Below are positions 19,741 to 41,235 of a stretch of DNA of 64,000 bases, in pieces (the stretch's first letter is position 1; each line of letters opens with the position of its first letter). The stretch is from NCBI GenBank assembly GCA_030445775.1, contig JASUTC010000001.1:96469-160468 (forward strand). Reading direction: 5' to 3'. The DNA comes from Thermotogaceae bacterium. GTDB lineage: Bacteria > Thermotogota > Thermotogae > MWEM01. The translations under genes and the position numbers were made by a program. The notes under the pieces were generated by a model. That model made no database searches and was not told the origin of the DNA. It worked only from the letters and a program-made list of their open reading frames with translations.

Positions 19741-21439
19741 GAATAACACCTCTTTGGGGTTTAAGCCAATAAAAACCATAGGGTGTGAGTCTTAAGGTTT
19801 CACCAAGGTCATGTCCTGTGAGTAAATCCCTATAATGACCTTTCCCATCTATTTGAGAAAGATTAACAACTTGTGATTCCTCTGAAAGATTCACGATAAC
19901 CAATACTGCTTCATCTTCATAACTTCTCTTAATAATAAACAACCTGTGGTTTTCAATTATACACTTTTGTTCACCTTTGTAGGAAAGGGATTTTTGAGAA
20001 GTTCTAACTTCTAACATCTTTTTAAGATTGTAAAAAATTTTATGACGTTTGGACATTTCGTCCGATAATGAATGGGATAGAGTTTTAATATCGATTTTTT
20101 CTCTGTTAATCGCCCGATTATGACCGTGTTGTTGAATACCTTCTTCCCAATTTTGTGAACCTAAAAGGCTGTGAATGTATATTCCCGGTATTCCCTTGAG
20201 AGAAATGGCTATGGCATAAGCCCCTAAAAACTTTTTGATATTGTAGTTCTCAGAATGAGAATCATCGGACAATGCGTCAAAATAATTTATATTCATTTCA
20301 TAGGGGATCTCTGTTCCATCGCTATTTTGTTTATACGATATTCTTCCGTGATTTTTAAGGCATTTTTGGACTAAGCTGTCAACTTCATCACGGTCAATTA
20401 AACCCTTCAAAGGCATCAACCCGATTCCATCATGAGAAGCTAAAAAATTAAAATAAGTCGCTTCTAATCCCGGGTCTTCAAGATTTGTTATCCAATGATT
20501 TAATACATCGGAAGATTGTTGCAAATAAGCGTGCAGTATTAACGGTGGCAGAGAAAAGTTATAAACCATATGTGCTTCATTTGTTCCTTCTCCAAAATAG
20601 CTGATGTTTTCAGAGTGTGGTACATTCGTTTCAGTAATCAATAATGCATTTTTATTTAAAGCATCCACAATGGACCGAAATAATCTAACAATTTCATGGG
20701 TTTGAGTCAGGTGGATACAGGATGTCCCCAATTCTTTCCAGAGATAACCAATGGCATCCAACCTGATTAAACTGGCTCCTTTTTCGATATAGAAAAGAAG
20801 TATATCGATAATCTTTAACAGAAGTTTTGGGTTTTTGTAATTTAAATCAATCTGATCAGAAGAAAATGTCGTCCATACCCTTTTTTTGCCGTTCTTGGTT
20901 TCAAAACTTGTTAATAAAGGAGTTGCCCTTGGTCTGGTAACTTGAGAAATGCCTTCTTCACTTTCTAATTCTATAAAAAAATCTTCGTAATCCGTTTTTG
21001 AATTTAAAAATCCTTGAAACCAATCGCTTTTTTGTGAGATGTGATTAATGACCGCATCAAACATCAAATGATAATATTTGGAAAGTTCTTCAACATCTTC
21101 CCAATTACCGTATTGCGGATCGATCTTTTTATAATCGATAACGGAAAAACCATCATCGGATGAATAGGGAAAAAAAGGCAAGATGTGAATGGTATTAAAT
21201 GCAGAACCGCAGTATTTTATGAGAAAATCCGTTAAAACACTCAGAGGAGAGGCTTCACCCCTGAGTGTATCGGCATAAGTAATCAATATTCCATTGATAT
21301 CTTCTAATTTTGTTTTATGACATTGTTTATGTTTTCCATTAAAGCAATCAATTTTTCTTTGAAGGGCATCAAATAAGTCATCAACATCGTTAGGATATAC
21401 TTTTTTAAGACTTTTATAGATGGCTTCATCCTTATTCAT
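19730..21439 (-). CDS. GH13_18 glycoside phosphorylase (sucrose-phosphorylase family; specificity unresolved)
   Basis: RLDAIGYLWKE (nucleophile Asp), ITETNVPH (acid/base Glu), FLASHDGIG and FSLPPLILHA. The start is trimmed to an ATG preceded by GGTGA. Confidence 0.85.
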   Translation of the reverse strand: MNKDEAIYKSLKKVYPNDVDDLFDALQRKIDCFNGKHKQCHKTKLEDINGILITYADTLRGEASPLSVLTDFLIKYCGSAFNTIHILPFFPYSSDDGFSVIDYKKIDPQYGNWEDVEELSKYYHLMFDAVINHISQKSDWFQGFLNSKTDYEDFFIELESEEGISQVTRPRATPLLTSFETKNGKKRVWTTFSSDQIDLNYKNPKLLLKIIDILLFYIEKGASLIRLDAIGYLWKELGTSCIHLTQTHEIVRLFRSIVDALNKNALLITETNVPHSENISYFGEGTNEAHMVYNFSLPPLILHAYLQQSSDVLNHWITNLEDPGLEATYFNFLASHDGIGLMPLKGLIDRDEVDSLVQKCLKNHGRISYKQNSDGTEIPYEMNINYFDALSDDSHSENYNIKKFLGAYAIAISLKGIPGIYIHSLLGSQNWEEGIQQHGHNRAINREKIDIKTLSHSLSDEMSKRHKIFYNLKKMLEVRTSQKSLSYKGEQKCIIENHRLFIIKRSYEDEAVLVIVNLSEESQVVNLSQIDGKGHYRDLLTGHDLGETLRLTPYGFYWLKPQRGVIHVG

Positions 21440-22940: not shown

Positions 22941-24125
22941 TTGAAAACACTTAACAGGTATGTTTGGAAGAACGCAATATCCCCATTTTTTTTGGGTTTT
23001 TTTGGATTTATTATATTCGTCAGTGTAAATCTGCTTTACTTTCTTTCATTAAATATTATTGATTATGGTATTCCACCATGGAGATTATTTCAACTCCTGT
23101 ATTTCTTCTTACCTGAACTAAGTGCTGAAGCAATTCCTGTGGGAGTTTTATTATCAATTTTTTGGATACTTTCTCAAATGTCCACGAAGAATGAGCTGAT
23201 GGCATTACAGGTTAACGGTGTATCCTTTAAATCCGTGGTGATTCCCTTTTTGATATTTGGTCTTTTGTTGAGTTTTTTCACTTTTTTCTTGAATGATTAT
23301 CTTATTCCAGAATTTAACACCCAAAAAGAAAAAGAACTCTCGGATTTTATGTCAGAAAATATCGGTTATTCAACCATATCCAACAAATTCCTTCCCATTA
23401 CCGGTAACAAGTATTTTTACGTTAAACAACCCATTGACAATGAAACGCTTGATGATGTCATTGTATACGAAATCGAACAGTCAGCGCTTAAAACAATATT
23501 TGCAGATGAACTTCGAAAAGAAGTTAATACTGACAGCTGGATAATGGTGGATGGACAAGTCGTTAATTTGGATGATGAAAGGGGATTAACATTAAATGTT
23601 GATTTTGATGTAACAGAGTTCGAGGAGCTGTCTGAGGAATTAAGTGACTCTCTAAAAGATGCCATGAGTATCTTCTCCGAAGTCAATATATACGGTCAGC
23701 AAGATAACAATGAGCAAAGACTCTATAAGTATTCAACTTCTTCACTACTGTTCAACATGCTGAGCGAGTCTGATGAAAAAGAGAGAGCGTTTTTAGAACT
23801 AAATTCCCGTTTTGCTAAATCTTTGAGTCCCTTCATCATCGCTTTACTTGGGACTTCTATTTGTCTCGTCTCGAATATTAAAAGTAAATCCTGGAGTATT
23901 GTGATCAGTTTTCTTTTAATCGGCACTTTTAAATCCGGAGAGATCTTTATGCAAAGTGTGGCATTACACAATGTTGCTTCCCATTCAAACACACGGTATC
24001 AGTTAAATCCGTCTTTGGCAGTGTGGGCACCCGATTTGATTTTCTTATTTTTAGGGCTTTTGTTGTTCATCCTGTTGGATTCCAAAATCATGTACTATAT
24101 TAAAGAAAGATTTGTTAGAAAATGA
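22941..24125 (+). CDS. LptF/LptG-family (YjgP/YjgQ) permease
   Basis: TTG start with SD GAAGGAG. N-terminal RY..K........GF, three TM helices, a large periplasmic insert, then three TM helices, as in YjgP/YjgQ. Confidence 0.75.
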   Translation: MKTLNRYVWKNAISPFFLGFFGFIIFVSVNLLYFLSLNIIDYGIPPWRLFQLLYFFLPELSAEAIPVGVLLSIFWILSQMSTKNELMALQVNGVSFKSVVIPFLIFGLLLSFFTFFLNDYLIPEFNTQKEKELSDFMSENIGYSTISNKFLPITGNKYFYVKQPIDNETLDDVIVYEIEQSALKTIFADELRKEVNTDSWIMVDGQVVNLDDERGLTLNVDFDVTEFEELSEELSDSLKDAMSIFSEVNIYGQQDNNEQRLYKYSTSSLLFNMLSESDEKERAFLELNSRFAKSLSPFIIALLGTSICLVSNIKSKSWSIVISFLLIGTFKSGEIFMQSVALHNVASHSNTRYQLNPSLAVWAPDLIFLFLGLLLFILLDSKIMYYIKERFVRK

Positions 24126-24143: not shown

Positions 24144-25274
24144 TTGAGTATCTTAAAAAGATACATCTTTAAATCTTCAATATTTCCTTTTATCCTCGGT
24201 TTTGGAGGTTTTTTACTTTATGCAAATGTCTTTATTTTAATAGAAGTGTCTTCTGAAATTATTCGGAATGATCTCTCGTTTTGGAAGATGTTTCCATTCA
24301 TTTTTTATCAAATACCAAGATATATCCCACAAGCCATACCGGTTGGCGTGTTGTTGTCCATCTTTTGGTTGCTGTCAAAATTAGAATCTAACAACGAAAT
24401 TATTGCTTTGCAGGTCCACGGTGTTAAGTTAAAGAGAATCGTTACACCCTTTTTGATCTTAGGTATTCTTCTCTCCATATTCACTTTCTTTCTTAAAGAA
24501 TACGTTGTTCCGCAAATTTACAGAAACAGACAAGCAGAAATATACCTTTCTTCCGGGATCGATAAATTCCAACTCCTTCAAGATAATCGGTATCTGTTTA
24601 TGAAAAGGGTATATGCCAATAGAAAAGAATTGAGTGGTGTATTTATATACGATATAGATTCAGAATCAAACAGTATGAATATCTTTTACGCGGATGAAAT
24701 AACATTTGATAATAAAAATGCTCATTGGGATCTATCCAACATGAAAGTATACAGTACTTTAGAAGATTCAAGAATGGTACAACAGCCAATTACTGAAAAG
24801 CAAAAGCAAATGATAATGAATGACATCGATTATTATTTCCTTTTAACCAAGAAAAATATGTATAACATGACTTCTCAAGAATTACTCTACATCATCCAAG
24901 AGAATAAAAGAAGAGGTGTCAGCAATCGAGAAAGTTTTACATTTGAAGTGGAATTGCATTCACGTTATGCACAGTCCTTGGGTCCCCTTGTGATTGCCAT
25001 ATTGGGTGTCCCTCTTTCTCTGGCACTAAATATCAAAAGCAAGGCTTGGAGTGTTATCTTCACCTTTTTACTCATTGCCCTCTATCAAGGATCAACACAG
25101 TGGATGGCTGCCATGGGACGTGCCGATCGCTGGAGCCCGTGGCATATCAACCCCATTTTGGCTACATGGGGGCCAGACCTCTTGTTTGTGATCATCGGTA
25201 CTTTTTTCTATTTGTTACTTGATACGCAAGTATTATACGTTTTTAAAGAATGGATCTCAAAGTATTCGGGATAA
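24144..25274 (+). CDS. LptF/LptG-family (YjgP/YjgQ) permease, second paralog
   Basis: TTG start with SD GGAGGA. MSILKRYIFKS... and the same topology as the upstream paralog. Confidence 0.75.
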   Translation: MSILKRYIFKSSIFPFILGFGGFLLYANVFILIEVSSEIIRNDLSFWKMFPFIFYQIPRYIPQAIPVGVLLSIFWLLSKLESNNEIIALQVHGVKLKRIVTPFLILGILLSIFTFFLKEYVVPQIYRNRQAEIYLSSGIDKFQLLQDNRYLFMKRVYANRKELSGVFIYDIDSESNSMNIFYADEITFDNKNAHWDLSNMKVYSTLEDSRMVQQPITEKQKQMIMNDIDYYFLLTKKNMYNMTSQELLYIIQENKRRGVSNRESFTFEVELHSRYAQSLGPLVIAILGVPLSLALNIKSKAWSVIFTFLLIALYQGSTQWMAAMGRADRWSPWHINPILATWGPDLLFVIIGTFFYLLLDTQVLYVFKEWISKYSG

Positions 25275-31816: not shown

Positions 31817-33223
31817 GTGGTACATATAAAGACGAATGTGACTGACAGAGAGAAAGAGTTCTTCCAATTATTGCAAAAGAATATTCATCCTAATCATTGG
31901 GATATGTGGTTCGGTTCACTCAGTATTTCCAGTATAAAAGATGAAGAGCATCTTATAACTTTTGCTGTGGAAAATCTCTTTCTTAAAGAAAGACTTAAAA
32001 ATAAATACGGAAAAACTATCGAAAATACGGTTCGTGATTATTTCGGTAAAGATTACGGGTATCGCTTGGAGTATTCAACTCTGGATTCAAATAATCCCAC
32101 TAGTACTGACAAGAAAAAAAGCTCTGGAGAGCGATTAATTAAAAGAAAACCCGTGGCTTTATCAAACTTAAATAGGAATTACACCTTTGAACGCTTTATT
32201 CCGGGTGGTGGCAATCTTTTTGCGTATAATAGTGCCGTTGAAGTATCTCGAAATCCCGGACAATTTAATCCAATGTTCATCTACGGTGAAGTGGGATTGG
32301 GTAAAACTCACCTTTTACAAGCTATTGCACATGAAATAATGAAAAAACACCCCCAACTAAGGGTGTTGTATATCACATCTGAGGAATTTATGAACAATCT
32401 CATCTACTGCATTAAAACCAACACCACTGAGAAGTTTAGGGAAAGGTTTAGACAAAATATCGATGTTTTACTCATCGATGATATTCAATTCCTCATCGGA
32501 AAAAAAGGTATACAAAACGAATTGTTTCATACCTTCAATTCACTTTATGATTCAGGGAAACAAATCGCGTTTTGTGGCGATAGGAACCCAAACGATCTGG
32601 GAACCTTTCATAATCGGCTGATTTCGAGATTCCAGATGGGTCTCGTTGTTGAAATGCTCGCCCCCGATGTTAGCACCCGAAAGCGGATTATTGAAAATTT
32701 TATTGAAAATGAAGGGTTGTCTTTACCCGTTAATGTCATAGAATATATCGCAGAGAATTCTTCAAACAACATACGTGAAATTATTGGGTTTCTCATTAAG
32801 ATCATCATGGCTAATAAATTACAAAATAAACCCATTGACTTGATGACTGTAAAACTTATTCTAAATGAAATCATGCCCAACAATGAAGAAAAGGTAAACA
32901 AAACACCTTCACCAAAGGAAAAACTTTTTCAATCCGTAGAAAAAGTCTTTGATATTGATCAAAAAACCTTGGTTTCAAAAACCAGGAAAAAACCAGTTAG
33001 TGAAATTAGGATGATCGCCATGTACTTAGCTGTCCATACAATGAAAGAACCAGTTACCGGTGTAGCAGATTGGTTTGAAAAAACCCATTCTTCTGTCAAT
33101 TATTCTATCAATAAAATCGATTCGCTCATCAAGAATGATAATCAAAGAATTATACGACAATTAGATCGCCTTAAAGATCAATACAATACTTCAACAGCTG
33201 ATCATGTCGCGATTAATGCATAA
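31817..33223 (+). CDS. dnaA: chromosomal replication initiator DnaA
   Basis: GTG start. AAA+ motifs GEVGLGKTHLL and LLIDDIQFL, plus a C-terminal DNA-binding domain (MYLA...T..S...IA..F....HSSV.YS). The exact start is uncertain. Confidence 0.93.
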   Translation: MVHIKTNVTDREKEFFQLLQKNIHPNHWDMWFGSLSISSIKDEEHLITFAVENLFLKERLKNKYGKTIENTVRDYFGKDYGYRLEYSTLDSNNPTSTDKKKSSGERLIKRKPVALSNLNRNYTFERFIPGGGNLFAYNSAVEVSRNPGQFNPMFIYGEVGLGKTHLLQAIAHEIMKKHPQLRVLYITSEEFMNNLIYCIKTNTTEKFRERFRQNIDVLLIDDIQFLIGKKGIQNELFHTFNSLYDSGKQIAFCGDRNPNDLGTFHNRLISRFQMGLVVEMLAPDVSTRKRIIENFIENEGLSLPVNVIEYIAENSSNNIREIIGFLIKIIMANKLQNKPIDLMTVKLILNEIMPNNEEKVNKTPSPKEKLFQSVEKVFDIDQKTLVSKTRKKPVSEIRMIAMYLAVHTMKEPVTGVADWFEKTHSSVNYSINKIDSLIKNDNQRIIRQLDRLKDQYNTSTADHVAINA

Positions 33224-34996
33224 TTAATAAGCCGCGCATACAACCATCTCTTCATCAGTAAGAATGGCGAGATGGTTTTTCTTTTTGATAACCTTAATCA
33301 AGGTTCCTGATAATGTAACAAGGGGTTTCTCATCTTGATAGAGCATGTTTCCCGATTGCTTGAATTCAGTATCCAACTTTTCAGCTTCCTTTTTTCTCAA
33401 ATCTGTAGATTTACTTTTAAAATAATAATCAATATAACTCTCATAATTTTGAAGATTTATTCTTATTTTTTCTTCTGTTTGTTCCAAAAAATTAATCCCG
33501 GTGATACCCGGAATTCTCATGTCAAAATATTCTCGGTATCCAAGTTCTGTATTAATTAAAATAACCCTTGAATAGGCGTCTAAAACGCCAATATATTTTT
33601 CGGTTGTAATAATTTTGTAGGCTATGTAATTAACAGATCTACTCCATTGTGGTTCCCATGTGTTCATATCAAGAGAAATCACTTTTTTATCCGATGTAAA
33701 CAGCCATAGATTGTGATGAATCTTCACAGCGTTGATGATCATGCTTGTTCCATTGTAATGCGTTTTTTTTGACCAATTTTTTATGCTGTTTCCTGTCACA
33801 AAGGTATTCCCGTCGAACCAAACCACTTTCGAATCAATGGCTGAAATGAGTTCATTTTCTATGTCAATAAGGAGAGACTCATAAGAATCTGCAAGGATTA
33901 CCCGCTTTTCTTCGAAGAAAATATCCTTGTAAACACGAGATAAATCCATTCGATATACAATCGTTCCGGGTTTTTCTACTAAAACAATGTCCATCATTAA
34001 CTGCTGGGCAGATGATAGTTGGAACATTTTCTCGTATCGCTTGTATTCGTTATTGTCAACTATTAATTTGTATTCACCCGGTATAAGTTCAAGCTTTTCA
34101 TTCTGAGACCGTAGCGATTCAACGATTTCTTCATCTTTCAACAAAAGGATTTGTGCTGGAACATTCAAGTTAATTGTCAATTCAGCTTTTTTTATGTTAT
34201 CAAGTGAGATAACCATATCATTTTTTAGATAAATGTATTGAGAACGATTTGCAAATTCGATCTCATGAACACCTTCATCTAAATACACTCGCACAGGAGC
34301 GGTAAATTTTTCACCATCAATAAAAATAGTCTGTGGATCACTAGTTTCTACAGTTAATAAAAATTGTTTTTGAGTTAAATCGAGAAATAAAATGGGGTAA
34401 AAGGGAACATCAAATTCCATGTTTCGATTATCCACGGTTATTTTTAATTGATCATCAAATATCTTGATAACAGAGTACTCTGGTCCTTTATAAAGTTTTT
34501 CACCGTTGACAGTAAAAAAACGTTCAGTGTGTATGAGTACTAATTTAGGTAGGCTCTTTGAATAATTGCCGAAAGCATTTTGAAAAAAATCCTCTAATTG
34601 AGGTACGTTATTTTCTGAAACAGTCAAAAGGGAATCCATATTGTTAATTTCCCTTGAATCATAAACAATTTCAATATAAATAAATCGATCTTGAAGGCGT
34701 TCAGTTTTTACATAAAGTCTTTTACCTTCACCGAGAACAAAACCAAGATTTTGCAAGACCGTTTCAATTCCTTCTAAAAGGGTTTCTTCCCCTTCATATT
34801 CTAAAGTGATCCTTGGCTGATCCTTCCACCATTCCTCAATTGAAAATTGATTACTATAAGCCATAATCTCAAATTTACCCAAGGATAACTCTTCATTTAA
34901 GTTACAATCTTTCAATCTGTAGGATTCTATAAGTTCTGAACTAAGACCAACCATTGTAAGAATGAGTAGTGTTAAAATGAAAAGTTTGTTTTTCAT
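33224..34996 (-). CDS. secreted protein with PEGA-like beta-sandwich repeats and a possible beta-propeller; function unknown
   Basis: Signal MKNKLFILTLLILTMVGLS. Repeats such as VRVYLDEGVHEIEF and LIPGEYKLIV resemble PEGA domains. Its start shares 1 nt with the upstream stop. Confidence 0.45.
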   Translation of the reverse strand: MKNKLFILTLLILTMVGLSSELIESYRLKDCNLNEELSLGKFEIMAYSNQFSIEEWWKDQPRITLEYEGEETLLEGIETVLQNLGFVLGEGKRLYVKTERLQDRFIYIEIVYDSREINNMDSLLTVSENNVPQLEDFFQNAFGNYSKSLPKLVLIHTERFFTVNGEKLYKGPEYSVIKIFDDQLKITVDNRNMEFDVPFYPILFLDLTQKQFLLTVETSDPQTIFIDGEKFTAPVRVYLDEGVHEIEFANRSQYIYLKNDMVISLDNIKKAELTINLNVPAQILLLKDEEIVESLRSQNEKLELIPGEYKLIVDNNEYKRYEKMFQLSSAQQLMMDIVLVEKPGTIVYRMDLSRVYKDIFFEEKRVILADSYESLLIDIENELISAIDSKVVWFDGNTFVTGNSIKNWSKKTHYNGTSMIINAVKIHHNLWLFTSDKKVISLDMNTWEPQWSRSVNYIAYKIITTEKYIGVLDAYSRVILINTELGYREYFDMRIPGITGINFLEQTEEKIRINLQNYESYIDYYFKSKSTDLRKKEAEKLDTEFKQSGNMLYQDEKPLVTLSGTLIKVIKKKNHLAILTDEEMVVCAAY

Positions 34997-35715
34997 CAGA
35001 TAACCCCTCTATGTCGAACAAAATGATATAAAATAGTCCAAGTTCCGGAAAAAACCTTAAAACCAATAAGAAAGTTAAAAAGAAGGGCGTTTCCTCCAGA
35101 AAAAAAAGTGCCTGGAGTGGTTTGAGGTAAAAAATTTGAGAAACCGGCATTTGAAAGTAACAACCCAACGATCCCGGAAATCGGGATAAAAAACATAATG
35201 GATTGTTCTATTTCGTGTATGTGCAAACTATTCAGATTCTCTTCTATTCGATTTAAATCCTTCGAACCGCTTAGAACCAATAAGCCTGTCCCAGCAACAA
35301 CACCCCCGACAAACCCTCCACCTGGTCCAATATGACCAGAAAAAACGATGTATATAGAAAATATCACGGATAGGGTAAAGATAAAACTGCCGGCAATTTC
35401 CATTCTTAAATCCACTTCCTCAGAGTGAATGGATATCAACTTAGACGGTTTTGTTTTTTTACTGTCAGGAAGCTTTTCCAATACCATATTAACACCAAAA
35501 GCAGCAACAAAAAAAACAATCACTTCAAAAATTGTGTCATAGAATCGATAATCAAGATAGATTGCGCTGATAAGATTCATTGATGTATTAGACTCAATGG
35601 GGTTTTCCAAATAAGGATTATCATATTTTTCCAAATCGTTGTTCGAAATATATAAAAACACTACAACACCAAATAGCAATAGCAGAACGAGTACCAAGAG
35701 GGACACGAATTTCAT
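34996..35715 (-). CDS. MnhB/MrpB-like (MbhF-like) membrane protein, orphan
   Basis: AIYLDYRFYDTIFE and GHIGPGGGFVGG are hallmark MnhB-domain motifs. About 5 TM helices. No MrpA/D antiporter-like genes lie nearby. Confidence 0.7.
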   Translation of the reverse strand: MKFVSLLVLVLLLLFGVVVFLYISNNDLEKYDNPYLENPIESNTSMNLISAIYLDYRFYDTIFEVIVFFVAAFGVNMVLEKLPDSKKTKPSKLISIHSEEVDLRMEIAGSFIFTLSVIFSIYIVFSGHIGPGGGFVGGVVAGTGLLVLSGSKDLNRIEENLNSLHIHEIEQSIMFFIPISGIVGLLLSNAGFSNFLPQTTPGTFFSGGNALLFNFLIGFKVFSGTWTILYHFVRHRGVI

Positions 35716-36407
35716 CCGATATATCGCCTCACCATCTCTTGAAAATCCCCTGAATTTTTAAGTTCTTTCAGATATTGCCTAAGATCTTCCGCTAATTCCG
35801 GCCTGTGATGCTCAATTAAAAATTGATATTGGGCCTTTCTGATAAACTCAAATTCCTCTGCCGGGGTTTCACCTTCCAATATTTCCTTCTTCATTCTTAC
35901 CAAATCTATTTCTCTTGACCTGGTATCTCGAAAGACCTTTGTTTCCAATATCTCTACCTTTAGCCATTTTCTTTCGTCAATTTTCATTTTTTCAGTACTG
36001 AAAATTCCCCCTATGATGATATCCGTTTGCTTCCTGTTAATCACTTGAGAATCTAATACCGAATATTCAGCCTCCAGGTTTTGTTCGATTAAAAAAGATT
36101 TCAGCAGCTCATACTCAAAGCCTGAAAGCTCTTCTTTCTTTCCAAAAATCATGTAAGGAGCCGGAACATACTTCACACGAACCATTCCTGTTTTTTTTAT
36201 GGCAATTAAAAAAACAAATGTCGTAAATCCTGCCCCCAACGCAAGTGATGCAAAAGAAACATCCGGAGCACCCATAAATAGATATGCTCCGGATGTGATG
36301 GTTCCAAAAAGTCCAAAATATAAAATGGATGTTTTCAGATTTTTTTCAATTAATAACGCGATAGACAGTAATAAAGCAAAAAACCAAAATATAGCTGAAA
36401 ACATCAT
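35712..36407 (-). CDS. DUF4040 (MbhD / MrpA C-terminal-like) membrane domain fused to a partial type-2 periplasmic-binding-protein-like domain
   Basis: The N-terminal 3 TM helices carry GAPDVSFASLALGAG (DUF4040-like). Then VRVKYVPAPYMIFG...LSGFEYELLKSF......TDIIIGGIFSTEKM resembles the SBP_bac_3 N-lobe. Confidence 0.55.
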   Translation of the reverse strand: MMFSAIFWFFALLLSIALLIEKNLKTSILYFGLFGTITSGAYLFMGAPDVSFASLALGAGFTTFVFLIAIKKTGMVRVKYVPAPYMIFGKKEELSGFEYELLKSFLIEQNLEAEYSVLDSQVINRKQTDIIIGGIFSTEKMKIDERKWLKVEILETKVFRDTRSREIDLVRMKKEILEGETPAEEFEFIRKAQYQFLIEHHRPELAEDLRQYLKELKNSGDFQEMVRRYIG

Positions 36408-36414
36408 CTCTCCT

Positions 36415-37986
36415 TTATTTAATCACAAATACTCCTTGAGAATCTCCTTCGTTGCTGACGCCTATTTCAGAATAAATTGCTGAAGGATAGGCCATTCCCA
36501 TAAGTTTTGTCAGAATATCTGAAATGTCTACAAACAACATCCCGTAATACTTATCAACGGTTTTAAACTCACCGCTCATATTTGTAAACATCTGATTTGC
36601 AGTAATTGGTGTTGCTTGTTTCACTTTAGTTTGAATATTTTCAGGTTTTAACGTTGTAATCATCATTTTATCCTGACTTAATACCAAATATGGATCAAAT
36701 TCACCCATTTCAATTTCTTCCATATAAGGATCCGTTTCAGCCATGTCTTCCATTTCACCTGAGAGTTTCATATATTTCATCCCATTTGAACTCTGTAATT
36801 GTTCACCGGAAGACAGAATTTGCTGTTCTATATATGCTATATCAGAAGTTCCCATATCGGCATACATATCAACAGCCATTTCACCCGCTTCTGTCATAGA
36901 TACATCTAAGCTCAACCGCATATCTCCTGTCCAACTTTTCATTAATTTCATGATCATATCCATGGCTTCAGCTGGTATTTCTTCATCACTCATTTTTACA
37001 GCTTGCGTCATAATATTTCTTATTACTGGGTCTAACATTGTCCAAAGCTGATCCATATTTCTTAATACCATTGCTCCTCTGACAAAGCCCGGAATGTTCA
37101 ATTTTTCAATCAAATCTGATTGTCTGTTTCCCATGTTGATTACCATGTTTTTAAACGCTTGATCTTTATAATTGTATTGGGTGAAGGACTCAAAAACCAG
37201 TCCATTATTTACATAGCCCTTAGTCCAACCGTATTCCATTTCAGCCTTTTCGCTCAAATCAAATCCCAGTTCCATACCATAGGCTTTTTGCATGGCTTCC
37301 ATCATCTTTTGATTATCCATTTTACCGTTGTAGAAAATCATCCAATTATCCTCTTGGGACAAATTAGAGAAAATGGAGTTTGATATGATGTTGTTTGCTT
37401 TTGCCTTCATGGCAACATTCATAGATTCCTGATCCATTGTAATTAACAAATGCCCATTATCCTGAGCCAATACAACGGGTCCATTAGCGCCAAATTGTAA
37501 TTCCATCTGAAGGAGTTTCCCCATGGTTTCAATGATATCCTGAGGATTTGCAGTTGGTTTTAGGATCAAGGCAAAATTCATATCTTCAATGGCTTCCATT
37601 ACAGGTCCAAGAGATGCCATTGGATCCATGGCCATCATTTGTTCAGGATCAGCCATTTCATTCATTTGGGCAAGTACATCGTAATTGATCTCCCCTCTTG
37701 CAAAAAATCCAATATCTCCCTGTAACAGTGCCCAAACGTTTTCCGGTTTAAATTCAGGATCAGTGTATTTCATGCTCTCAACTTGTTGTGACAACATCCC
37801 CTCCAATCCCATGTCTCTTAGTAAAAATCCGAAAATTGTTTGCTCCTTTAACTTGGCATAATTCTCTGGATTATTGACCGATGTGAACGCAAAAACTGAA
37901 TCTGCTGGAATATAATCGGTAACTTCAGCAAATTGAACTGTTATAAAAGCTAATAACAATAAAAAACAAAAAAAGACCTTTTTCAT
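36415..37986 (-). CDS. secreted methionine-rich, acidic protein; function unknown
   Basis: SD GGAGGTG. Signal MKKVFFCFLLLLAFITVQFA. I count 53 Met in 523 aa, clustered in MxM, MxxM and MM motifs such as MDMIMKLMK and EQMMAMDPM. Confidence 0.6.
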   Translation of the reverse strand: MKKVFFCFLLLLAFITVQFAEVTDYIPADSVFAFTSVNNPENYAKLKEQTIFGFLLRDMGLEGMLSQQVESMKYTDPEFKPENVWALLQGDIGFFARGEINYDVLAQMNEMADPEQMMAMDPMASLGPVMEAIEDMNFALILKPTANPQDIIETMGKLLQMELQFGANGPVVLAQDNGHLLITMDQESMNVAMKAKANNIISNSIFSNLSQEDNWMIFYNGKMDNQKMMEAMQKAYGMELGFDLSEKAEMEYGWTKGYVNNGLVFESFTQYNYKDQAFKNMVINMGNRQSDLIEKLNIPGFVRGAMVLRNMDQLWTMLDPVIRNIMTQAVKMSDEEIPAEAMDMIMKLMKSWTGDMRLSLDVSMTEAGEMAVDMYADMGTSDIAYIEQQILSSGEQLQSSNGMKYMKLSGEMEDMAETDPYMEEIEMGEFDPYLVLSQDKMMITTLKPENIQTKVKQATPITANQMFTNMSGEFKTVDKYYGMLFVDISDILTKLMGMAYPSAIYSEIGVSNEGDSQGVFVIK

Positions 37987-38001: not shown

Positions 38002-38958
38002 TTAGTTTACCCTCTTTGTTAATGAAATAAATATATCCTCTAATGTTGGTTCGTTGATTCTGATGTTTTCGATGGTTGAAAAAGTTTCCAACAAAAGTTG
38101 TTGTAATTCTTTCACTTTATCGTTTCCGTTGATAGTAATGACGTAATTTTTTTTATCTTCATGTTGTACATCTTGAATCCAGTTTATTGTTTTCAGTTTG
38201 TTATAATTGTCTTTGTTTTCAATCAAACCGGATACAAAAACTTTTATTTCATCCTTTTTTTTCAATTCGGCAGATTTCAGATTTAAGATACTGTCAATGG
38301 TAATTAACTGTCCTTTATCGATGATGGCCACTCGCTTACAAATTTCCTCCACAGACCACATCACATGTGTAGTCAAGAGTACCGTTGTACCATTTTCATT
38401 GATCTCCAGGATGAAATCCCTGACGACCTGGCGGGATTTCGGATCCAAACCATTTGTGGGTTCATCCAAAACAAGGAGTTTCGGATCATGTAAAATCCCT
38501 CTGCATATATTGATTTTTTGGGCCATCCCAGATGAAAAATTCTTAATTTTTTCATGACGCCATTCCCACATATCAAATTTCTTAAGAAGCATCTCGATCC
38601 TCTGGTTTGCCCTTTTTTTCTCTATATTATACAAACTGGCTGCATGCATCAAATTTTCTTTGGCGCTTAAATGCTGATACAAAATGACAGAAGCGGGAAC
38701 ATAACCAATGATTTCTCTGATTTCTTTTCTTTTTTTTGTGATATCATTTCCAAAAAGCTTGACTGAGCCTTTATCAGGTTTAAGAATCGTTGTTAAAATT
38801 CTTACTAGAGTTGTTTTCCCCGCTCCGTTGGGACCTAACAACCCAAAAATTTCTCCTTGATTAAAATTGAAGGAAACTTCTTTTAATGCCTGAATACTTC
38901 CAAAACTTTTGCTGATATTGTTAATTTCAACAGCTATAGTGTTACTCAATACGATCAC
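38002..38958 (-). CDS. ABC transporter ATP-binding protein (ABC-2/DrrA/CcmA-like, with a C-terminal extension)
   Basis: Walker A GPNGAGKTT, signature FSSGMAQK, Walker B LVLDEPTNGLD, H-loop TTHVM. The start is ambiguous (GTG 38958 or TTG 38949 after AGGTGA). Confidence 0.85.
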   Translation of the reverse strand: MIVLSNTIAVEINNISKSFGSIQALKEVSFNFNQGEIFGLLGPNGAGKTTLVRILTTILKPDKGSVKLFGNDITKKRKEIREIIGYVPASVILYQHLSAKENLMHAASLYNIEKKRANQRIEMLLKKFDMWEWRHEKIKNFSSGMAQKINICRGILHDPKLLVLDEPTNGLDPKSRQVVRDFILEINENGTTVLLTTHVMWSVEEICKRVAIIDKGQLITIDSILNLKSAELKKKDEIKVFVSGLIENKDNYNKLKTINWIQDVQHEDKKNYVITINGNDKVKELQQLLLETFSTIENIRINEPTLEDIFISLTKRVN

Positions 38959-38965
38959 CTGTTTT

Positions 38966-39364
38966 TTATCTTTTTTTGTTTTTTAGATCTCCCAACGCAC
39001 CGGGACCTGCAATTTCAATACGCTGTCCCTCTTTCTTGATCTTTTCTTCAGCTTCCTCCATTATCTTTTTATATTGTTCATATTCTGCTTTGATGGCTGA
39101 CATATCTCCATCGAACCAATTCATAATACTTTCAGTTAATCCCTCGACGGTGTTGAAGTCTACATTATCTGCTGAGCCCAGATATTTCATAATATTCAAT
39201 TGCTTCCTTACTGCAGCTCTTATATCCTCTTTTTTTATCACATCTTGATCTGTTAAGGCACTTCCTATGATATTAATTCTAAAACGAAGGTCTTCAACAG
39301 ATGCACTTAACCCTTCTAATCTTGATATGAGCATGTTCATCAATTCTTCCAATGACATATCCAT
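38966..39364 (-). CDS. 132-aa predicted coiled-coil protein, function unknown
   Basis: SD GGAGGG upstream. Heptad-like charged sequence with no recognisable motif. Confidence 0.4.
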   Translation of the reverse strand: MDMSLEELMNMLISRLEGLSASVEDLRFRINIIGSALTDQDVIKKEDIRAAVRKQLNIMKYLGSADNVDFNTVEGLTESIMNWFDGDMSAIKAEYEQYKKIMEEAEEKIKKEGQRIEIAGPGALGDLKNKKR

Positions 39365-39405: not shown

Positions 39406-40023
39406 TTAACAACAAGTAATGAAATCCCCACCGGAACCTTCACAACAACAGTCAAGACACCAAAGGGTACTACAAACCTGACAACATGTCTCTGTATCTG
39501 TTCTGGCATGGCCGGCTCTTCTGGAAAAGAAATAACCGTTAACCGTTTGCCTGTAAGCCGCTTGATATTCTGAGTTTTCAGGATCAAGCCTTAAGGCCTT
39601 TTCAAAGTTAATCCTGCCCTGATTGTAATTCCCGGATGAAATCTCTATCACGCCCATCAGATAAAACCACTCAGCATCTCTCACACTTATATCTTCCAAG
39701 ATATTTCTGGCTTCAGAAAATCTTCCAGCTTGAATCAGTCTTCTAATATATGTATAATCATAGCCCGAAGAACTACTTGTAGATCTTGAGTTGTTTTTTT
39801 GATAACTATCTTCTTGATAGCCTTGCCGTGAAACACCGTTGTTGATAACATAATCATACGCTTCGTTTATTTCCTTCATTTTTTGCTCTGCCAATTCTTT
39901 CATGTGTTTTTCTTTATAATAATCCGGATGGTATTTTTTAACCAACCGATTATAAGCTTCTTTTATTTCCTTTTTTGTTGCACCGGGTTTGATATTTAAG
40001 ACTTTATAGGGATCTTTATTCAT
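39406..40023 (-). CDS. J-domain protein with a TPR-like middle and a C-terminal cysteine string
   Basis: J domain DPYKVLNI...[16 protein letters not shown] (HPD motif). C-terminus [26 protein letters not shown] has 9 Cys in 26 aa. SD AAGGAG lies 6 nt before ATG 40023. Confidence 0.75.
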
Positions 40024-40912
40024 GAAGAACTCCTTTTTTTTGACAATTAGACTTCTGACCAAGAACTCTGTAAACCATTGCCGGTAATGACTTTGATATT
40101 ATACCATCAATTTCAGAACGATATACACCCAAACAATCGTTAAAAAGAGAATAGATATACTCGAGGTGATCAAGCAAAAGATATAGACGCCATTTTTCTT
40201 TATCTTTTATTTTTTTTACCACCTCTTCGGTTTTACCAACGGAAAGAATAACTTCTTTATTTTCAAAGATTAGGGGATTATAATGCCACTTTTTTAAATC
40301 CCTTTCGAGATCTTCAAAGGCGTCTAATGTATATATTAATTTACCCAAAAAAAAGGTAAATTGTTCAGTTTCATCAGGTAATTTGATGTACAATTGCCTT
40401 GAAGCATAACGGGTTGTTTTTTTTAGTATTGTCCCAAAACAATTTGATAATTCATCTATTTCGGGCTTCTTAAGTTCTTCCATTCTCTCCAATTGATAAA
40501 AAAGATTATCCAAATCATCGTACTTGAACAATGTTTCACGGTTCCATTTCATCGGGATTTTATTGAGACCTTGGTACAATAATTTCTTAAACCATCTTTC
40601 ATCCCTTATGTTATCCTCAATCTTTTTTTTCACAAAGTAAACGCTGACATCTGCTGCTGTTTGGTCTATCTCATTAGGTCTTTTGACCCTTCTTTTGTTC
40701 ACCGGATGCATGATACAAGTTTCATATTTGTAAACAAAATTTTTACCGCTCAAGGCATGCCATAAAAGGGTTAATAAACTGATGTCATATGATAAAAAAA
40801 GTCTTGAAAATTGTCCATACCTCTTTCCGAGAGTCTTACATAAACCGCAATATTGAGCTTTAAACAGATAATTCTCACAATCATTTCTAACGGGTCTGAT
40901 ATATCCAAACAT
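40016..40912 (-). CDS. DUF5685-like protein, function unknown
   Basis: The N-terminus MFGYIRP....C..Y.....YCGLCK.LG..YG..SRL.LSYD matches my memory of the DUF5685 N-terminus (unverified). It overlaps both neighbouring genes. Confidence 0.5.
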
Positions 40913-41235
40913 CAACCTCTCTCCACATATTTCTTGATACCATTCAGGATATCTACATTCGAAGTGCTAACTGCACTCAGTTCTTTTTTACCAAGCCTTT
41001 TTGCCAATTCTATTTTTGTTGTTCTTTGAAATTGTATGAGCAAAGTACCGGTCGTTGCGGTCTTGTTAAACCACATCTTTTTAGTGTTGTCAGAACAGTC
41101 TGAAGCTAAAAACAAAATTTTAAAATGATTTGAATTCAGATATCTTTCCAAACTTTCTTTTCCATATATCAGTGCTCCCATTTTACTTGCAAATGAAAGT
41201 AATCCTATGATCTTTTCTTCAATTTTGTCATTCAC
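40912..41235 (-). CDS. L7Ae/L30e-fold (YlxQ-like) RNA-binding protein
   Basis: 107 aa with a GTG start. LLSFASKMGALIYGKESL....N..K.LFLASD is typical of YlxQ/L7Ae-like proteins. Confidence 0.6.
   Translation of the reverse strand: MNDKIEEKIIGLLSFASKMGALIYGKESLERYLNSNHFKILFLASDCSDNTKKMWFNKTATTGTLLIQFQRTTKIELAKRLGKKELSAVSTSNVDILNGIKKYVERG

What the first reader, a model, noticed from the sequence alone, without database searches (positions are those of the whole stretch)
34996..36407. Orphan Mrp/Mbh-derived membrane pair, one fused to a solute-binding-protein-like domain
Seen directly:
- The 239-aa protein carries the MnhB-domain hallmarks AIYLDYRFYDTIFE and GHIGPGGGFVGG.
- The 231-aa protein starts with three TM helices containing GAPDVSFASLALGAG, which is DUF4040 / MbhD / MrpA C-terminal-like.
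- The 231-aa protein then continues into a ~155-aa soluble domain. Its first half (VRVKYVPAPYMIFGKKEELSGFEYELLKSFLIEQNLEAEY...RKQTDIIIGGIFSTEKMK) looks like the N-lobe of a type-2 periplasmic binding protein (SBP_bac_3 pattern: pPf.f....G..GfdvdL...ia..lg...e........sgk.D.i..g...T.eR).
- The two genes overlap by 4 nt.

Established knowledge: these two modules normally occur only as small connecting subunits inside multi-subunit Mrp antiporters or Mbh/Mbx hydrogenases, next to antiporter-like MrpA/D subunits. None is present within at least 20 kb here.

Inference: a stand-alone, possibly ligand-sensing derivative of the Mrp small-subunit module. It may be the membrane component for the adjacent permease-less ABC ATPase.
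Basis: partly seen in the sequence, partly recalled or inferred. Interest (0 to 1): 0.6.

Follow-up and report, generated by a model that had tools for sequence, protein, structure and literature searches.

The report
Mrp membrane pair moved into ABC operon
Two small membrane proteins that normally form part of a sodium/proton antiporter (Mrp) have left that machine in one group of uncultured Thermotogota and now sit, altered, in the middle of a conserved operon built around a transporter ATPase that has no membrane partner of its own; what the new assembly does is unknown.

Summary
The 239-aa ORF is an MbhE+MnhB/MrpB protein, the counterpart of MbsE in the solved Pyrococcus furiosus MBS respiratory complex. 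The 231-aa ORF is three MbhD helices fused to a class-II binding-protein (PBP) fold. The two genes overlap by ATGA. No other Mrp gene lies in the 64-kb window.

Three points of the interpretation need correcting:
- The MbhD-PBP fusion is not special to the orphan pair. It is the normal form in group 3 Mrp operons (mrpEFG-[MbhD-PBP]-[MbhE/B]-mrpC-mrpD) of Thermotogota and at least one Bipolaricaulota MAG. It was seen in 51 of 80 metagenome loci and in 6 further contexts.
- The PBP-like domain is predicted to be cytoplasmic. Its second lobe is reduced and the canonical ligand-clamp residues are missing, so periplasmic ligand sensing is unlikely.
- The pair is the fixed 4th and 5th gene of a six-gene operon: a small helical protein, a DrrA-class ABC ATPase, a 523-aa exported protein, the pair, and a 590-aa PEGA-domain protein. 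This operon is conserved in 14 uncultured Thermotogota species with differing flanks, and in metatranscriptomes contigs bridge all five gene junctions.

Cassette copies of MbhD have lost the Glu/Gln and Tyr of TM3 that all or nearly all operon copies keep. A sister lineage has the four-gene core without the pair.

Best reading: a co-opted, remodelled Mrp sub-module serving the ABC system. Whether other Mrp genes exist elsewhere in these genomes could not be tested.

The parts
38966..39364 (-). g1: 132-aa small helical protein with no predicted TM segment, so presumably cytoplasmic; first gene of the cassette
   Evidence: Present at the same position in all inspected cassette loci and in the pair-less loci. 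No convincing Pfam or PDB match. Weak PADLOC hit to HEC-01B, E 8e-5. A transcript contig bridges the g1/g2 junction.
38002..38958 (-). g2: 318-aa DrrA/ABC-2 (type V) class ABC ATPase with a DrrA C-terminal domain; no ABC-2 permease is encoded in the cassette
   Evidence: ABC_tran 122 bits and DrrA1-3_C 29 bits. TIGR01188 drrA 292 bits, below its 312-bit cutoff. Closest solved relatives are the ABCA4, ABCA3 and ABCA1 nucleotide-binding domains, T. maritima 4yer, NosF and Rv1218c.
36415..37986 (-). g3: 523-aa Met-rich exported or membrane-anchored protein of a clade-restricted family
   Evidence: N-terminal hydrophobic signal-like segment. The family has 23 clusters, all labelled hypothetical and none with a Pfam domain. 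AF2 pLDDT 78, pTM 0.75. The only fold lead is Treponema lipoprotein TP0453 (E 8e-3, TM-score normalised to target length 0.36). It has the highest transcript depth in the cassette.
35712..36407 (-). g4: 231-aa MbhD/MbsD-like protein (three TM helices) fused to a PBP-like domain
   Evidence: The start is probably the second ATG, at 36404.
36189..36407 (-). g4 residues 1-73: the three TM helices homologous to MbhD, MbsD and MrpA TM17-19; the APDV motif is kept, but the TM3 Glu/Gln and Tyr are replaced (S54, F66)
   Evidence: MbhD 51.7 bits. Matches 6u8y_D and 6cfw_D.
35715..36185 (-). g4 residues 75-231: class-II PBP (SBP_bac_3) fold with a strongly reduced lobe 2, predicted cytoplasmic
   Evidence: SBP_bac_3 29.8 bits. 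Foldseek matches to ArgBP, GlnBP and MltF. Positive-inside counts. The MbsD C-terminal tail contacts the cytoplasmic arm of MBS.
34996..35715 (-). g5: 239-aa MbsE-like protein, made of MbhE (2 TM; residues 1-82, nt 35470-35715) plus MnhB/MrpB/MbhF (4 TM; residues 106-227, nt 35035-35400)
   Evidence: MnhB 69 bits and weak MbhE. NF009218 108 bits over the full length. 6u8y_E at E 1.4e-12 for the window protein alone and 9e-49 for the family profile. All hallmark residues are kept: R57, D60, E64, G127, H128, P131, G132-134, F135.
33224..34996 (-). g6: 590-aa exported or anchored protein with PEGA/CarboxypepD_reg-like beta-sandwich domains; last gene of the cassette
   Evidence: N-terminal hydrophobic segment. 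PEGA matched in 7 of 10 members and CarboxypepD_reg in 4 of 10. Overlaps g5 by 1 nt. Present in all cassette loci and in the pair-less loci.

Best explanation
The two ORFs are a true MbsD-like and MbsE-like pair, equivalent to MrpA TM17-21 plus MrpB, with nine TM helices in all. The pair originated in a group 3 Mrp operon of the type common in Thermotogota, where MbhD already carries a cytoplasmic PBP-like domain.

In one uncultured Thermotogota clade the pair, with its ATGA overlap intact, now lies between the third and last genes of a separate operon. That operon encodes a small helical protein with no TM segment (g1), a DrrA-class ABC ATPase without a permease (g2), and two large exported proteins (g3, g6).

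Shown:
- the homology;
- the ancestral state of the fusion;
- six-gene synteny in 14 species with different flanks;
- transcript contigs that bridge every junction;
- loss of the TM3 Glu/Gln and Tyr in MbhD;
- further shrinkage of PBP lobe 2;
- retention of all MbhE/MrpB hallmark residues.

Inferred: the pair no longer works as part of a proton-coupled antiporter. It serves instead as the polytopic membrane platform of the ABC-linked envelope complex. In this picture the PBP-like domain and the cytoplasmic loops face the ATPase and g1, and the periplasmic face contacts g3 and g6. The ATPase would then drive a conformational or ion-linked change across the membrane that acts on the exported proteins. 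The cargo or output is unknown.

The descriptive part is held at about 0.9. The mechanistic part is held at about 0.4.
For: Homology and origin:
- Domain and fold assignments.
- The same fusion and pair, with the same 4-nt overlap, sit inside mrpEFG-[MbhD-PBP]-[MbhE/B]-mrpC-mrpD in Marinitoga aeolica, a Kosmotogales MAG, a Thermotogaceae MAG and others, and in 51 of 80 metagenome loci.
- The soluble domains of cassette and operon copies align along their length.

Operon membership:
- The order g1-g2-g3-g4-g5-g6 is conserved in all 14 genome-collection species and in contigs with three different flanking contexts.
- Intergenic gaps are 7-15 nt, or the genes overlap.
- Metatranscriptome contigs bridge all five junctions, while the genes just upstream have zero coverage.

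Functional divergence:
- At the position equivalent to MbsD E58, operon copies have E (43), Q (15) or N (1); cassette copies have S (16) or M (2).
- In non-redundant sets the switches are A to S51 (37/37 against 12/12), E/Q/N to S54, V to T62 and Y to F66.
- E58 and the TM3 pi-bulge are named as proton-path features in PMC7684303.

Local context:
- No MrpC, D, E, F or G homologue in 387 kb of window plus related loci.
- No ABC-2 permease in the cassette or the window.
Against: - A sister lineage (two species) has g1-ABC-g3-g6 contiguous with no pair. So the ABC system does not strictly need the pair. Trees cannot say whether the pair was inserted or lost.
- I know of no described ABC ATPase that couples to an Mrp-type membrane domain (from memory; I did not search the literature for it). 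No docking could be modelled here.
- The MbhE/MrpB part keeps every conserved residue of working antiporters. This fits continued ion-related chemistry as well as a structural role.
- Whether the genomes encode the other Mrp subunits elsewhere was not testable with these tools.
- Metatranscriptome contigs carry no strand information and can contain some DNA.
Confidence: 0.45

Rival explanations
1. Split Mrp operon. The pair still assembles with MrpE, F, G, C and D encoded elsewhere in the genome and works as part of a group 3 Na+/H+ antiporter. Its position inside the ABC operon is a rearrangement fixed in the clade ancestor, with no functional link.
For: The MbhE/MrpB hallmark residues are all retained. 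The four-gene ABC core exists without the pair. The rest of the genome could not be searched.
Against: - Strict conservation of position and tight spacing between g3 and g6 across four deep lineages whose flanks differ. The ATGA overlap within the pair is itself ancestral, so it does not bear on this.
- Loss in all cassette copies of the TM3 Glu/Gln that every operon copy keeps, and of the Tyr that 36 of 37 keep.
- No E-F-G-C-D operon with a hole among 80 MrpD loci, including several from the metagenome that holds a cassette contig. Only the best 80 of 180 hits were seen, so this is modest evidence.
Confidence: 0.18
2. Autonomous small membrane module. The pair acts on its own, or as a homo-oligomer, as an ion leak, ion sensor or membrane-state sensor. 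It is only co-transcribed with the ABC genes, for example as a regulatory input, without forming a stable complex with the ATPase.
For: Conserved charged motifs DYRxxDTxxE and GHxxPGGGF are kept. The cytoplasmic PBP-like domain could signal. The core functions without the pair in a sister lineage.
Against: In solved Mrp, MBH and MBS structures these helices are interior layers that pack against MrpC, F and G, and no stand-alone unit is described (PMC7419157; PMC7684303). The 1-nt overlap with g6 points to tightly coupled expression with g6, which would be expected of complex partners.
Confidence: 0.2
3. One reading: a stand-alone, ligand-sensing derivative in which a periplasmic solute-binding domain captures a ligand for, or signals to, the ABC ATPase.
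For: The SBP_bac_3 fold is real. Adjacency to an ABC ATPase is conserved.
Against: - Positive-inside counts place the domain in the cytoplasm: loop 1 has 1.6 K+R and the post-TM3 segment 3.2 K+R, against 0 in the APDV loop. The homologous MbsD C-terminus contacts the cytoplasmic arm.
- Lobe 2 is reduced to about 40 residues.
- In the HMM alignment, the positions I identify from my recollection of E. coli GlnBP as its ligand-clamp residues Arg75 and Asp157 correspond to M141 and K173 in the window protein, and they are not conserved in the family.
- The ATPase is of exporter (ABC-2) class, not importer class.
Confidence: 0.04

Closest known systems
[quoted passage not shown]
   Same: The split is the same: a 3-TM MbhD-type protein followed by a 6-TM MbhE+MbhF fusion. 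The family profile matches 6u8y_E end to end (E 9e-49). The window proteins alone match 6u8y_E (1.4e-12), and the g4 family profile matches 6u8y_D (2.6e-5). The APDV, DYRxxDTxxE and GHxxPGGGF motifs are kept.
   Different: No antiporter-like subunit, NuoK-like subunit, MrpE/F/G or redox module is encoded nearby. MbhD carries a 155-aa cytoplasmic PBP-like domain in place of the short Trp-rich tail of MbsD. The residue equivalent to MbsD E58 is Ser.
Group 3 stand-alone Mrp operons (no mrpA, only mrpD), e.g. P. furiosus mrpEFGBB'CD (PMC8415708), and specifically the Thermotogota/Bipolaricaulota form mrpEFG-[MbhD-PBP]-[MbhE/B]-mrpC-mrpD
   Same: This is the direct evolutionary source. It has the same fusion, the same pair and the same 4-nt overlap. 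Identity to the window proteins is 23-31% overall for the fusion protein and 34-43% for the 239-aa protein.
   Different: In the window's clade only the two middle genes remain, placed in a foreign operon. Lobe 2 of the PBP domain is shorter still. The TM3 Glu/Gln and Tyr are lost.
Type V (ABC-2 / DrrAB / NatAB / ABCA-like) ABC exporters
   Same: g2 is a typical nucleotide-binding domain of this class with the DrrA C-terminal domain.
   Different: No ABC2_membrane permease is encoded in the cassette or the window. The only polytopic membrane proteins in the operon are the Mrp-derived pair. High-GC relatives of the Mrp operon do have a complete ABC-2 exporter downstream, but its ATPase is only 27% identical to g2, which is class-level similarity.
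SBP_bac_3 / class-II periplasmic binding proteins (GlnBP, ArgBP, HisJ; the MltF N-terminal domain)
   Same: The fold matches, and so does the C-terminal sequence pattern (...LK..G....MVRRYIG against ...lk.dGtydkiyekwfG).
   Different: The domain is cytoplasmic rather than exported, fused behind TM helices, about 70 residues shorter (lobe 2), and lacks the ligand-clamp residues. It resembles the non-transport MltF N-domain, where a PBP fold is reused as a module, more than a solute receptor.

Membership tests
Mrp / CPA3 antiporter, group 3 | MrpA C-terminal (MbhD + MbhE) and MrpB (MnhB) domains | tested here: met
   PF13244 51.7 bits, PF04039 69.4 bits, PF20501 20.9 bits (sub-threshold). Matches to 6u8y_D and 6u8y_E.
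Mrp / CPA3 antiporter, group 3 | Co-encoded antiporter-like subunit (MrpD/MrpA, PF00361) and NuoK-like MrpC (PF00420) | tested here: not met
   None in the 64-kb window, the 15 cassette loci or the 3 pair-less loci (387 kb in all). This is a local test only. The rest of each genome could not be searched.
Mrp / CPA3 antiporter, group 3 | Co-encoded MrpE, MrpF and MrpG | tested here: not met
   No tblastn hit at E 1e-2 in the same 387 kb. All 6 outgroup contexts and 51 metagenome loci do have them next to the pair.
Mrp / CPA3 antiporter, group 3 | Conserved protonatable residues of MbhD TM3 (the MbsD E58 equivalent; the Tyr at the pi-bulge) | tested here: not met
   Cassette copies have S or M, and F. 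Operon copies have E, Q or N, and Y. The role of E58 is taken from PMC7684303. The role of the Tyr is my recollection of complex I Nqo10 Y59.
Mrp / CPA3 antiporter, group 3 | Na+/H+ antiport activity | not testable with these tools
   Needs expression in an antiporter-deficient host (E. coli KNabc) or reconstitution.
SBP_bac_3 solute-binding proteins | Two-lobe class-II PBP fold | tested here: inconclusive
   The fold is recognised (Foldseek probability 1.0; Pfam 29.8 bits against a 26.4-bit cutoff). However, lobe 2 is reduced to one short strand and one helix, and the domain has 155 residues against about 225.
SBP_bac_3 solute-binding proteins | Export to the periplasm or cell surface | tested here: not met
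   The positive-inside rule places the domain in the cytoplasm. The homologous MbsD C-terminus is cytoplasmic.
SBP_bac_3 solute-binding proteins | Conserved ligand-clamp residues (Arg for the carboxylate, Asp for the amine) | tested here: not met
   In the HMM alignment to AncQR (PDB 4zv1) and the family alignment, these positions are M141 and K173 in the window protein and vary across the family. Their identity in GlnBP is from memory.
SBP_bac_3 solute-binding proteins | Partner type I importer permease (BPD_transp_1) | tested here: not met
   None in the cassette.
ABC-2 / type V ABC exporter | DrrA-class nucleotide-binding domain | tested here: met
   ABC_tran 122 bits, DrrA1-3_C 29 bits, TIGR01188 292 bits (below its 312-bit cutoff). 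ABCA nucleotide-binding domains are the closest solved relatives.
ABC-2 / type V ABC exporter | Adjacent ABC2_membrane permease | tested here: not met
   Absent from the cassette in all loci. The only other multi-pass proteins in the window are LptF/G, YidC, FtsW/RodA, one that I take from its position and size to be SecY, and one 4-TM ORF with no family match.
Known anti-phage defence systems (PADLOC) | Profile match of the components | tested here: not met
   Only generic P-loop hits for g2 and weak hits for g1, g3 and g4. The locus is inherited vertically next to dnaA in many species.

The most novel reading that the evidence does not exclude
The cytoplasmic PBP-like domain on MbhD is a docking or regulatory site for an energy input to the Mrp small-subunit ion module. 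In the window's clade that input has become an ABC ATPase. The result would be an ATP-driven device built on Mrp small subunits (an ion translocator or a trans-envelope mechanotransducer) rather than on an ABC permease. This would also bear on the open question of what drives group 3 Mrp complexes, which lack the MrpA 'energy-input' module (PMC8415708).
Probability: 0.1. Interest if true: 0.9.

Novelty: new variant of a known kind. Interest (0 to 1): 0.6.

Why it matters
Mrp small subunits are treated as obligate interior parts of Mrp, MBH, MBS and complex I-type machines. A conserved, transcribed pair living outside any such machine would be a rare case of this ancient module being reused for something else, particularly with its proton-path residues changed and with an ABC ATPase lacking a permease as its neighbour.

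Separately, a cytoplasmic binding-protein fold is fused to MbhD as the normal state in group 3 Mrp operons of at least two phyla. I found this described in no paper I could search, and databases sometimes annotate these proteins as amino-acid binding proteins. Because cultured Marinitoga species carry the complete-operon form, the role of that domain is directly testable. It may inform how group 3 Mrp complexes, which lack MrpA, are regulated or driven.

Tried and rejected
- Literature searches for DUF4040/MnhB and for Mrp + Thermotogae + MbhD found nothing on the fusion or the orphan pair.
- The 523-aa protein has no Pfam or PDB sequence match. Its fold search gives only a weak TP0453 lead, which I treat as a lead and not as an assignment.
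- I tested whether the 590-aa protein is related to the beta-propeller protein that follows MrpD in Marinitoga. It is not detectably related (BLASTP E 0.08; hhalign probability 3.8%).
- PADLOC shows no convincing defence-system match.
- The promoter and terminator consensus scan was uninformative, with fewer promoter-like sites than shuffles give.
- ABC ATPases sit downstream of Mrp in high-GC loci. I considered them possible orthologues of g2, but identity is only 27% and they come with their own ABC-2 permease. I kept this as a parallel and rejected it as evidence of orthology.
- Three MrpD loci without a pair (L038, L041, L093) were examined as possible 'hole' operons. They are other systems: NuoL/M/N-like triplets, or a lone MrpD-like gene.
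- Rooting the cassette trees to decide between insertion and loss of the pair failed, because there is no outgroup.

Full report
**1. Observation**

The two minus-strand ORFs are real: 34996-35715 (239 aa) and 35712-36407 (231 aa). They carry the quoted motifs.

Pfam results:
- 239-aa protein: MnhB at 69.4 bits over residues 106-227, and a sub-threshold MbhE match over residues 18-82.
- 231-aa protein: MbhD at 51.7 bits over residues 10-73, and SBP_bac_3 at 29.8 bits (cutoff 26.4) over residues 83-231.

NCBIfam matches the 239-aa protein end to end to 'antiporter subunit B' models of about 200 aa, which are MbhE+MnhB fusions.

The SBP call is marginal by sequence, so I tested it by structure. 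An AlphaFold2 model built on 19 family members has mean pLDDT 85. Its PDB matches are all class-II amino-acid binding proteins and the MltF N-domain, with probability 1.00. The model shows a full lobe 1. Lobe 2 is cut down to one short strand and one helix, giving about 155 residues against about 225 in a normal binding protein.

The ATGA overlap between the two genes is confirmed. So is a TGATG overlap with the next gene.

**2. The pair is part of a six-gene operon**

The fusion family is small: 29 clusters at 90% identity among 5.8 billion proteins, running down to 34% identity. In the genome collection it occurs in 14 species, all of them uncultured Thermotogota MAGs.

In every one of these species the gene order is the same:

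| Gene | Window coordinates (minus strand) | Product |
|---|---|---|
| g1 | 38966-39364 | ~134-aa helical protein |
| g2 | 38002-38958 | DrrA-class ABC ATPase |
| g3 | 36415-37986 | ~510-530-aa protein |
| g4 | 35712-36407 | MbhD-PBP fusion |
| g5 | 34996-35715 | MbhE/MnhB protein |
| g6 | 33224-34996 | ~590-610-aa protein |

The flanks differ. The block sits next to dnaA and a ribosomal protein cluster in the window and in L001. It sits next to quite different genes in L002 and in L004. Gaps between the genes are 7-15 nt, or the genes overlap.

What is known of the other four genes:
- g2 belongs to the ABC-2/DrrA/ABCA (type V exporter) class. No ABC-2 permease is present in the cassette.
- g3 belongs to a clade-restricted family with no Pfam or PDB match. 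It has a usable model (pLDDT 78) whose only fold lead is the Treponema membrane-integrating lipoprotein TP0453, and that match is weak.
- g6 has PEGA/CarboxypepD_reg-like beta-sandwich domains.
- g3 and g6 both begin with a signal-like hydrophobic segment.

Four metatranscriptome runs contain the locus. All six genes are covered and contigs bridge all five junctions. g3 is 4-10 times deeper than the other genes. The DnaJ and DUF5685 genes just upstream have zero depth in all four runs. That last point argues against simple DNA carry-over and for a separate transcription unit. Contigs carry no strand information, so this remains supportive evidence and not proof.

**3. Where the pair came from**

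The nearest relatives of the 239-aa protein outside the cassette clade are 227-236-aa proteins at 35-43% identity, from Marinitoga and other Thermotogota.

Every such relative I could inspect lies in a complete Mrp operon: MrpE-MrpF-MrpG-[MbhD+SBP_bac_3, 232-262 aa]-[MbhE+MnhB]-MrpC-MrpD, with the same 4-nt overlap inside the pair. This covers six independent contexts, including the complete Marinitoga aeolica genome, a Kosmotogales MAG and a Thermotogaceae MAG.

In the nomenclature of PMC8415708 these are group 3 Mrp operons: no mrpA, only mrpD. The split into a 3-TM protein plus an MbhE+MbhF fusion is the MbsD/MbsE arrangement of P. furiosus MBS.

Further evidence on how common the fusion is:
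- An exhaustive profile search finds about six cassette-type representatives and roughly fifty further MbhD-PBP fusions of 205-293 aa.
- Named members come from Marinitoga, Tepiditoga, Kosmotogaceae, Thermotogaceae and Candidatus Bipolaricaulota. Some are annotated as 'transporter substrate-binding domain-containing protein' or 'ABC-type amino acid transport substrate-binding protein'.
- A metagenome scan with Thermotogota MrpD returned 80 loci, of which 51 show the whole E-F-G-MbhD-PBP-MbhE/B-C-D arrangement.

The fusion is therefore ancestral and ordinary within this Mrp type. What is unusual in the window is that the pair is found without the rest.

A canonical Mbh/Mbx cluster from a Bacteroidales MAG (L020) has the unfused 85-aa MbhD followed by a 232-aa MbhE/F. 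It served as a further comparator.

**4. Is the pair really alone?**

I used MrpC, D, E, F and G from L020 and from four Thermotogota-type operons as tblastn probes. They hit nothing in 387 kb comprising the window, 15 cassette loci and 3 pair-less loci. MbhD, PBP and MbhE/F probes hit all 16 cassette sources.

I could not search whole genomes. As a partial test of the 'split operon' idea, I looked among the 80 MrpD loci for an operon in which MrpG is followed directly by MrpC. There was none. The three loci that have upstream sequence but no pair are other systems. Several of the 80 loci come from the metagenome that also holds a cassette contig. Only the best 80 of 180 hits were returned, so this is modest evidence.

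**5. Signs of changed function**

*Topology.* Across the family, loop 1 has a mean of 1.6 K+R and the segment after TM3 has 3.2 K+R. The APDV loop has no K or R and one acidic residue. That gives N-terminus out and C-terminus in. Independently, the C-terminal tail of MbsD projects into the cytoplasmic peripheral arm of MBS (PMC7684303). The PBP-like domain is therefore cytoplasmic, on the same side as the ABC ATPase and g1.

*Ligand site.* In the HMM alignment to the ancestral arginine/glutamine-binding protein AncQR (PDB 4zv1), I identify two positions from my recollection of E. coli GlnBP as the carboxylate-clamp Arg and the amine-binding Asp. They correspond to M141 and K173 in the window protein and vary across the family.

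*Proton-path residues.* PMC7684303 names E58 of MbsD and the pi-bulge in TM3 as conserved proton-path features.
- At the position equivalent to E58, 59 operon copies have E (43), Q (15) or N (1), and the two closest outgroups have E. The cassette copies have S (16) or M (2).
- In non-redundant sets (37 operon copies, 12 cassette copies) TM3 also shows A to S51 (37/37 against 12/12), V to T62, and Y to F66 (36/37 Tyr against 10/12 Phe).
- By contrast the MbhE/MnhB protein shares 25 conserved positions with operon copies, including R57, D60, E64, G127, H128, P131, GGG and F135.

So the MbhD layer has been remodelled, while the MbhE/MrpB part is under the same constraints as in working antiporters.

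**6. A complication: a pair-less core**

The most divergent g3 relatives (31-35% identity to the window's g3) lie in loci from two species (69% identical to each other in g3). In these loci g1, the ABC ATPase, g3 and a PEGA protein are contiguous, and only 38-90 nt separate g3 from the PEGA gene. No pair is present.

In trees of g2, g3 and g6 this lineage is one of four deep branches. Without an outgroup, one insertion or one loss of the pair is equally parsimonious.

Either way, the four-gene core can exist without the pair. The pair is therefore an accessory of the system, or has been replaced in that lineage, and is not its universal membrane domain.

**7. Interpretation**

*Best reading.* The pair is a co-opted and remodelled Mrp sub-module that now serves the ABC-linked envelope system, most simply as its polytopic membrane platform. 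Support comes from:
- the fixed position of the pair between g3 and g6 across deep divergence;
- tightly coupled expression with g6;
- transcript contigs bridging every junction;
- loss of the proton-path residues;
- further reduction of the PBP domain;
- absence of any conventional permease in the operon.

The physical coupling and the output of the system are inferred, not shown.

*Rivals.*
- The pair still belongs to an Mrp whose other genes lie elsewhere (0.18).
- The pair is an autonomous ion-related or sensing module that is only co-transcribed (0.2).

**8. Comparison and novelty**

The proteins are members of the MbhD/MbsD and MbsE (MrpA C-terminal and MrpB) families. The locus fails the membership test for an Mrp antiporter on local gene content and on the MbhD TM3 residues. 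The soluble domain has the SBP_bac_3 fold but fails the tests for location, ligand residues and permease partner.

I rate this a new variant of a known kind. Two things are new relative to the papers I could search:
- a cytoplasmic PBP fold on MbhD as the common state in group 3 Mrp operons;
- the relocation of that pair into an ABC ATPase operon.

Interest is moderate to high (0.6). It is a real and unusual reuse of an ancient module, and it opens a testable question in cultured Marinitoga. The function is unresolved, and the whole-genome check is still outstanding.

Noticed in passing
window 22941-24125 (+) and 24144-25274 (+): Two adjacent LptF/LptG-family permeases (PF03739, 182 and 217 bits) have no ABC ATPase beside them. 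They lie about 13 kb from the permease-less ABC ATPase of the cassette. The linkage is not kept in the distant cassette loci L002 and L004.
   Followed up: partly
L030 3154-6550; L031 5217-8562; L032 4422-7767: In the pair-less lineage, an SBP_bac_5 gene and two BPD_transp_1 (OppB/C-like) permease genes lie 60 nt upstream of the four-gene core. No OppD/F-type ATPases are present. So here too an ATPase without a permease sits next to permeases without an ATPase.
   Followed up: no
L044 5962-10569; L081 5731-10324; similar layouts in L054, L064-L066, L074, L082, L083, L089, L092, L096: In high-GC (56-68%) metagenome contigs, the complete group 3 Mrp operon with the MbhD-PBP fusion is followed by a HAD hydrolase and a complete ABC-2 exporter (ATPase plus ABC2_membrane_3 permease). 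These contigs are possibly Bipolaricaulota, since one fusion protein in the same 255-293-aa length class carries that label. The ATPase is only 27% identical to the cassette ATPase.
   Followed up: partly
window 36415-37986 (g3): In four metatranscriptome runs g3 has 4-10 times the contig depth of the other cassette genes (15-38 against 1-6). The high-depth contigs run about 20-165 nt into g4.
   Followed up: no
window 36404-36407: The 231-aa ORF begins ATGATG. Most homologues begin MFS... (the more distant ones ML/MI/ME), and the closest cluster is 230 aa. The second ATG is therefore the likely start.
   Followed up: partly
window 39406-40915 (-): A DnaJ-TPR protein with a Cys-rich C-terminal tail (...[26 protein letters not shown]) and a DUF5685 protein lie just upstream of the cassette. 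They are syntenic with it in about 10 of the 14 species but absent in the deepest lineages. They have zero coverage in the metatranscriptomes that cover the cassette.
   Followed up: partly
window 1-64000; dnaA at 31817-33223 (+): dnaA, rnpA, an 86-aa ORF that looks like yidD, and yidC are all present, but GC skew stays negative across nearly the whole window, with no sign change near dnaA. Most genes are on the minus strand, so gene-strand bias may be masking the origin signal.
   Followed up: no
window 16616-18646 (-) and 18643-19779 (-): A 676-aa ORF and an overlapping 378-aa ORF with four predicted TM helices have no Pfam match at E 1e-4.
   Followed up: no
window 38966-39364 (g1): Weak PADLOC match of the small helical protein to HEC-01B (E 8e-5, 20.8 bits). 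g2 gives only generic P-loop hits, including one to HEC-01A. I judged this insufficient to call a defence system.
   Followed up: partly
L021 12473-14332; L023 10834-12690; L024 12475-14331: In Marinitoga-type loci a ~618-aa WD40/PQQ-like beta-propeller protein follows MrpD on the same strand. It is not detectably related to the cassette's 590-aa protein.
   Followed up: yes
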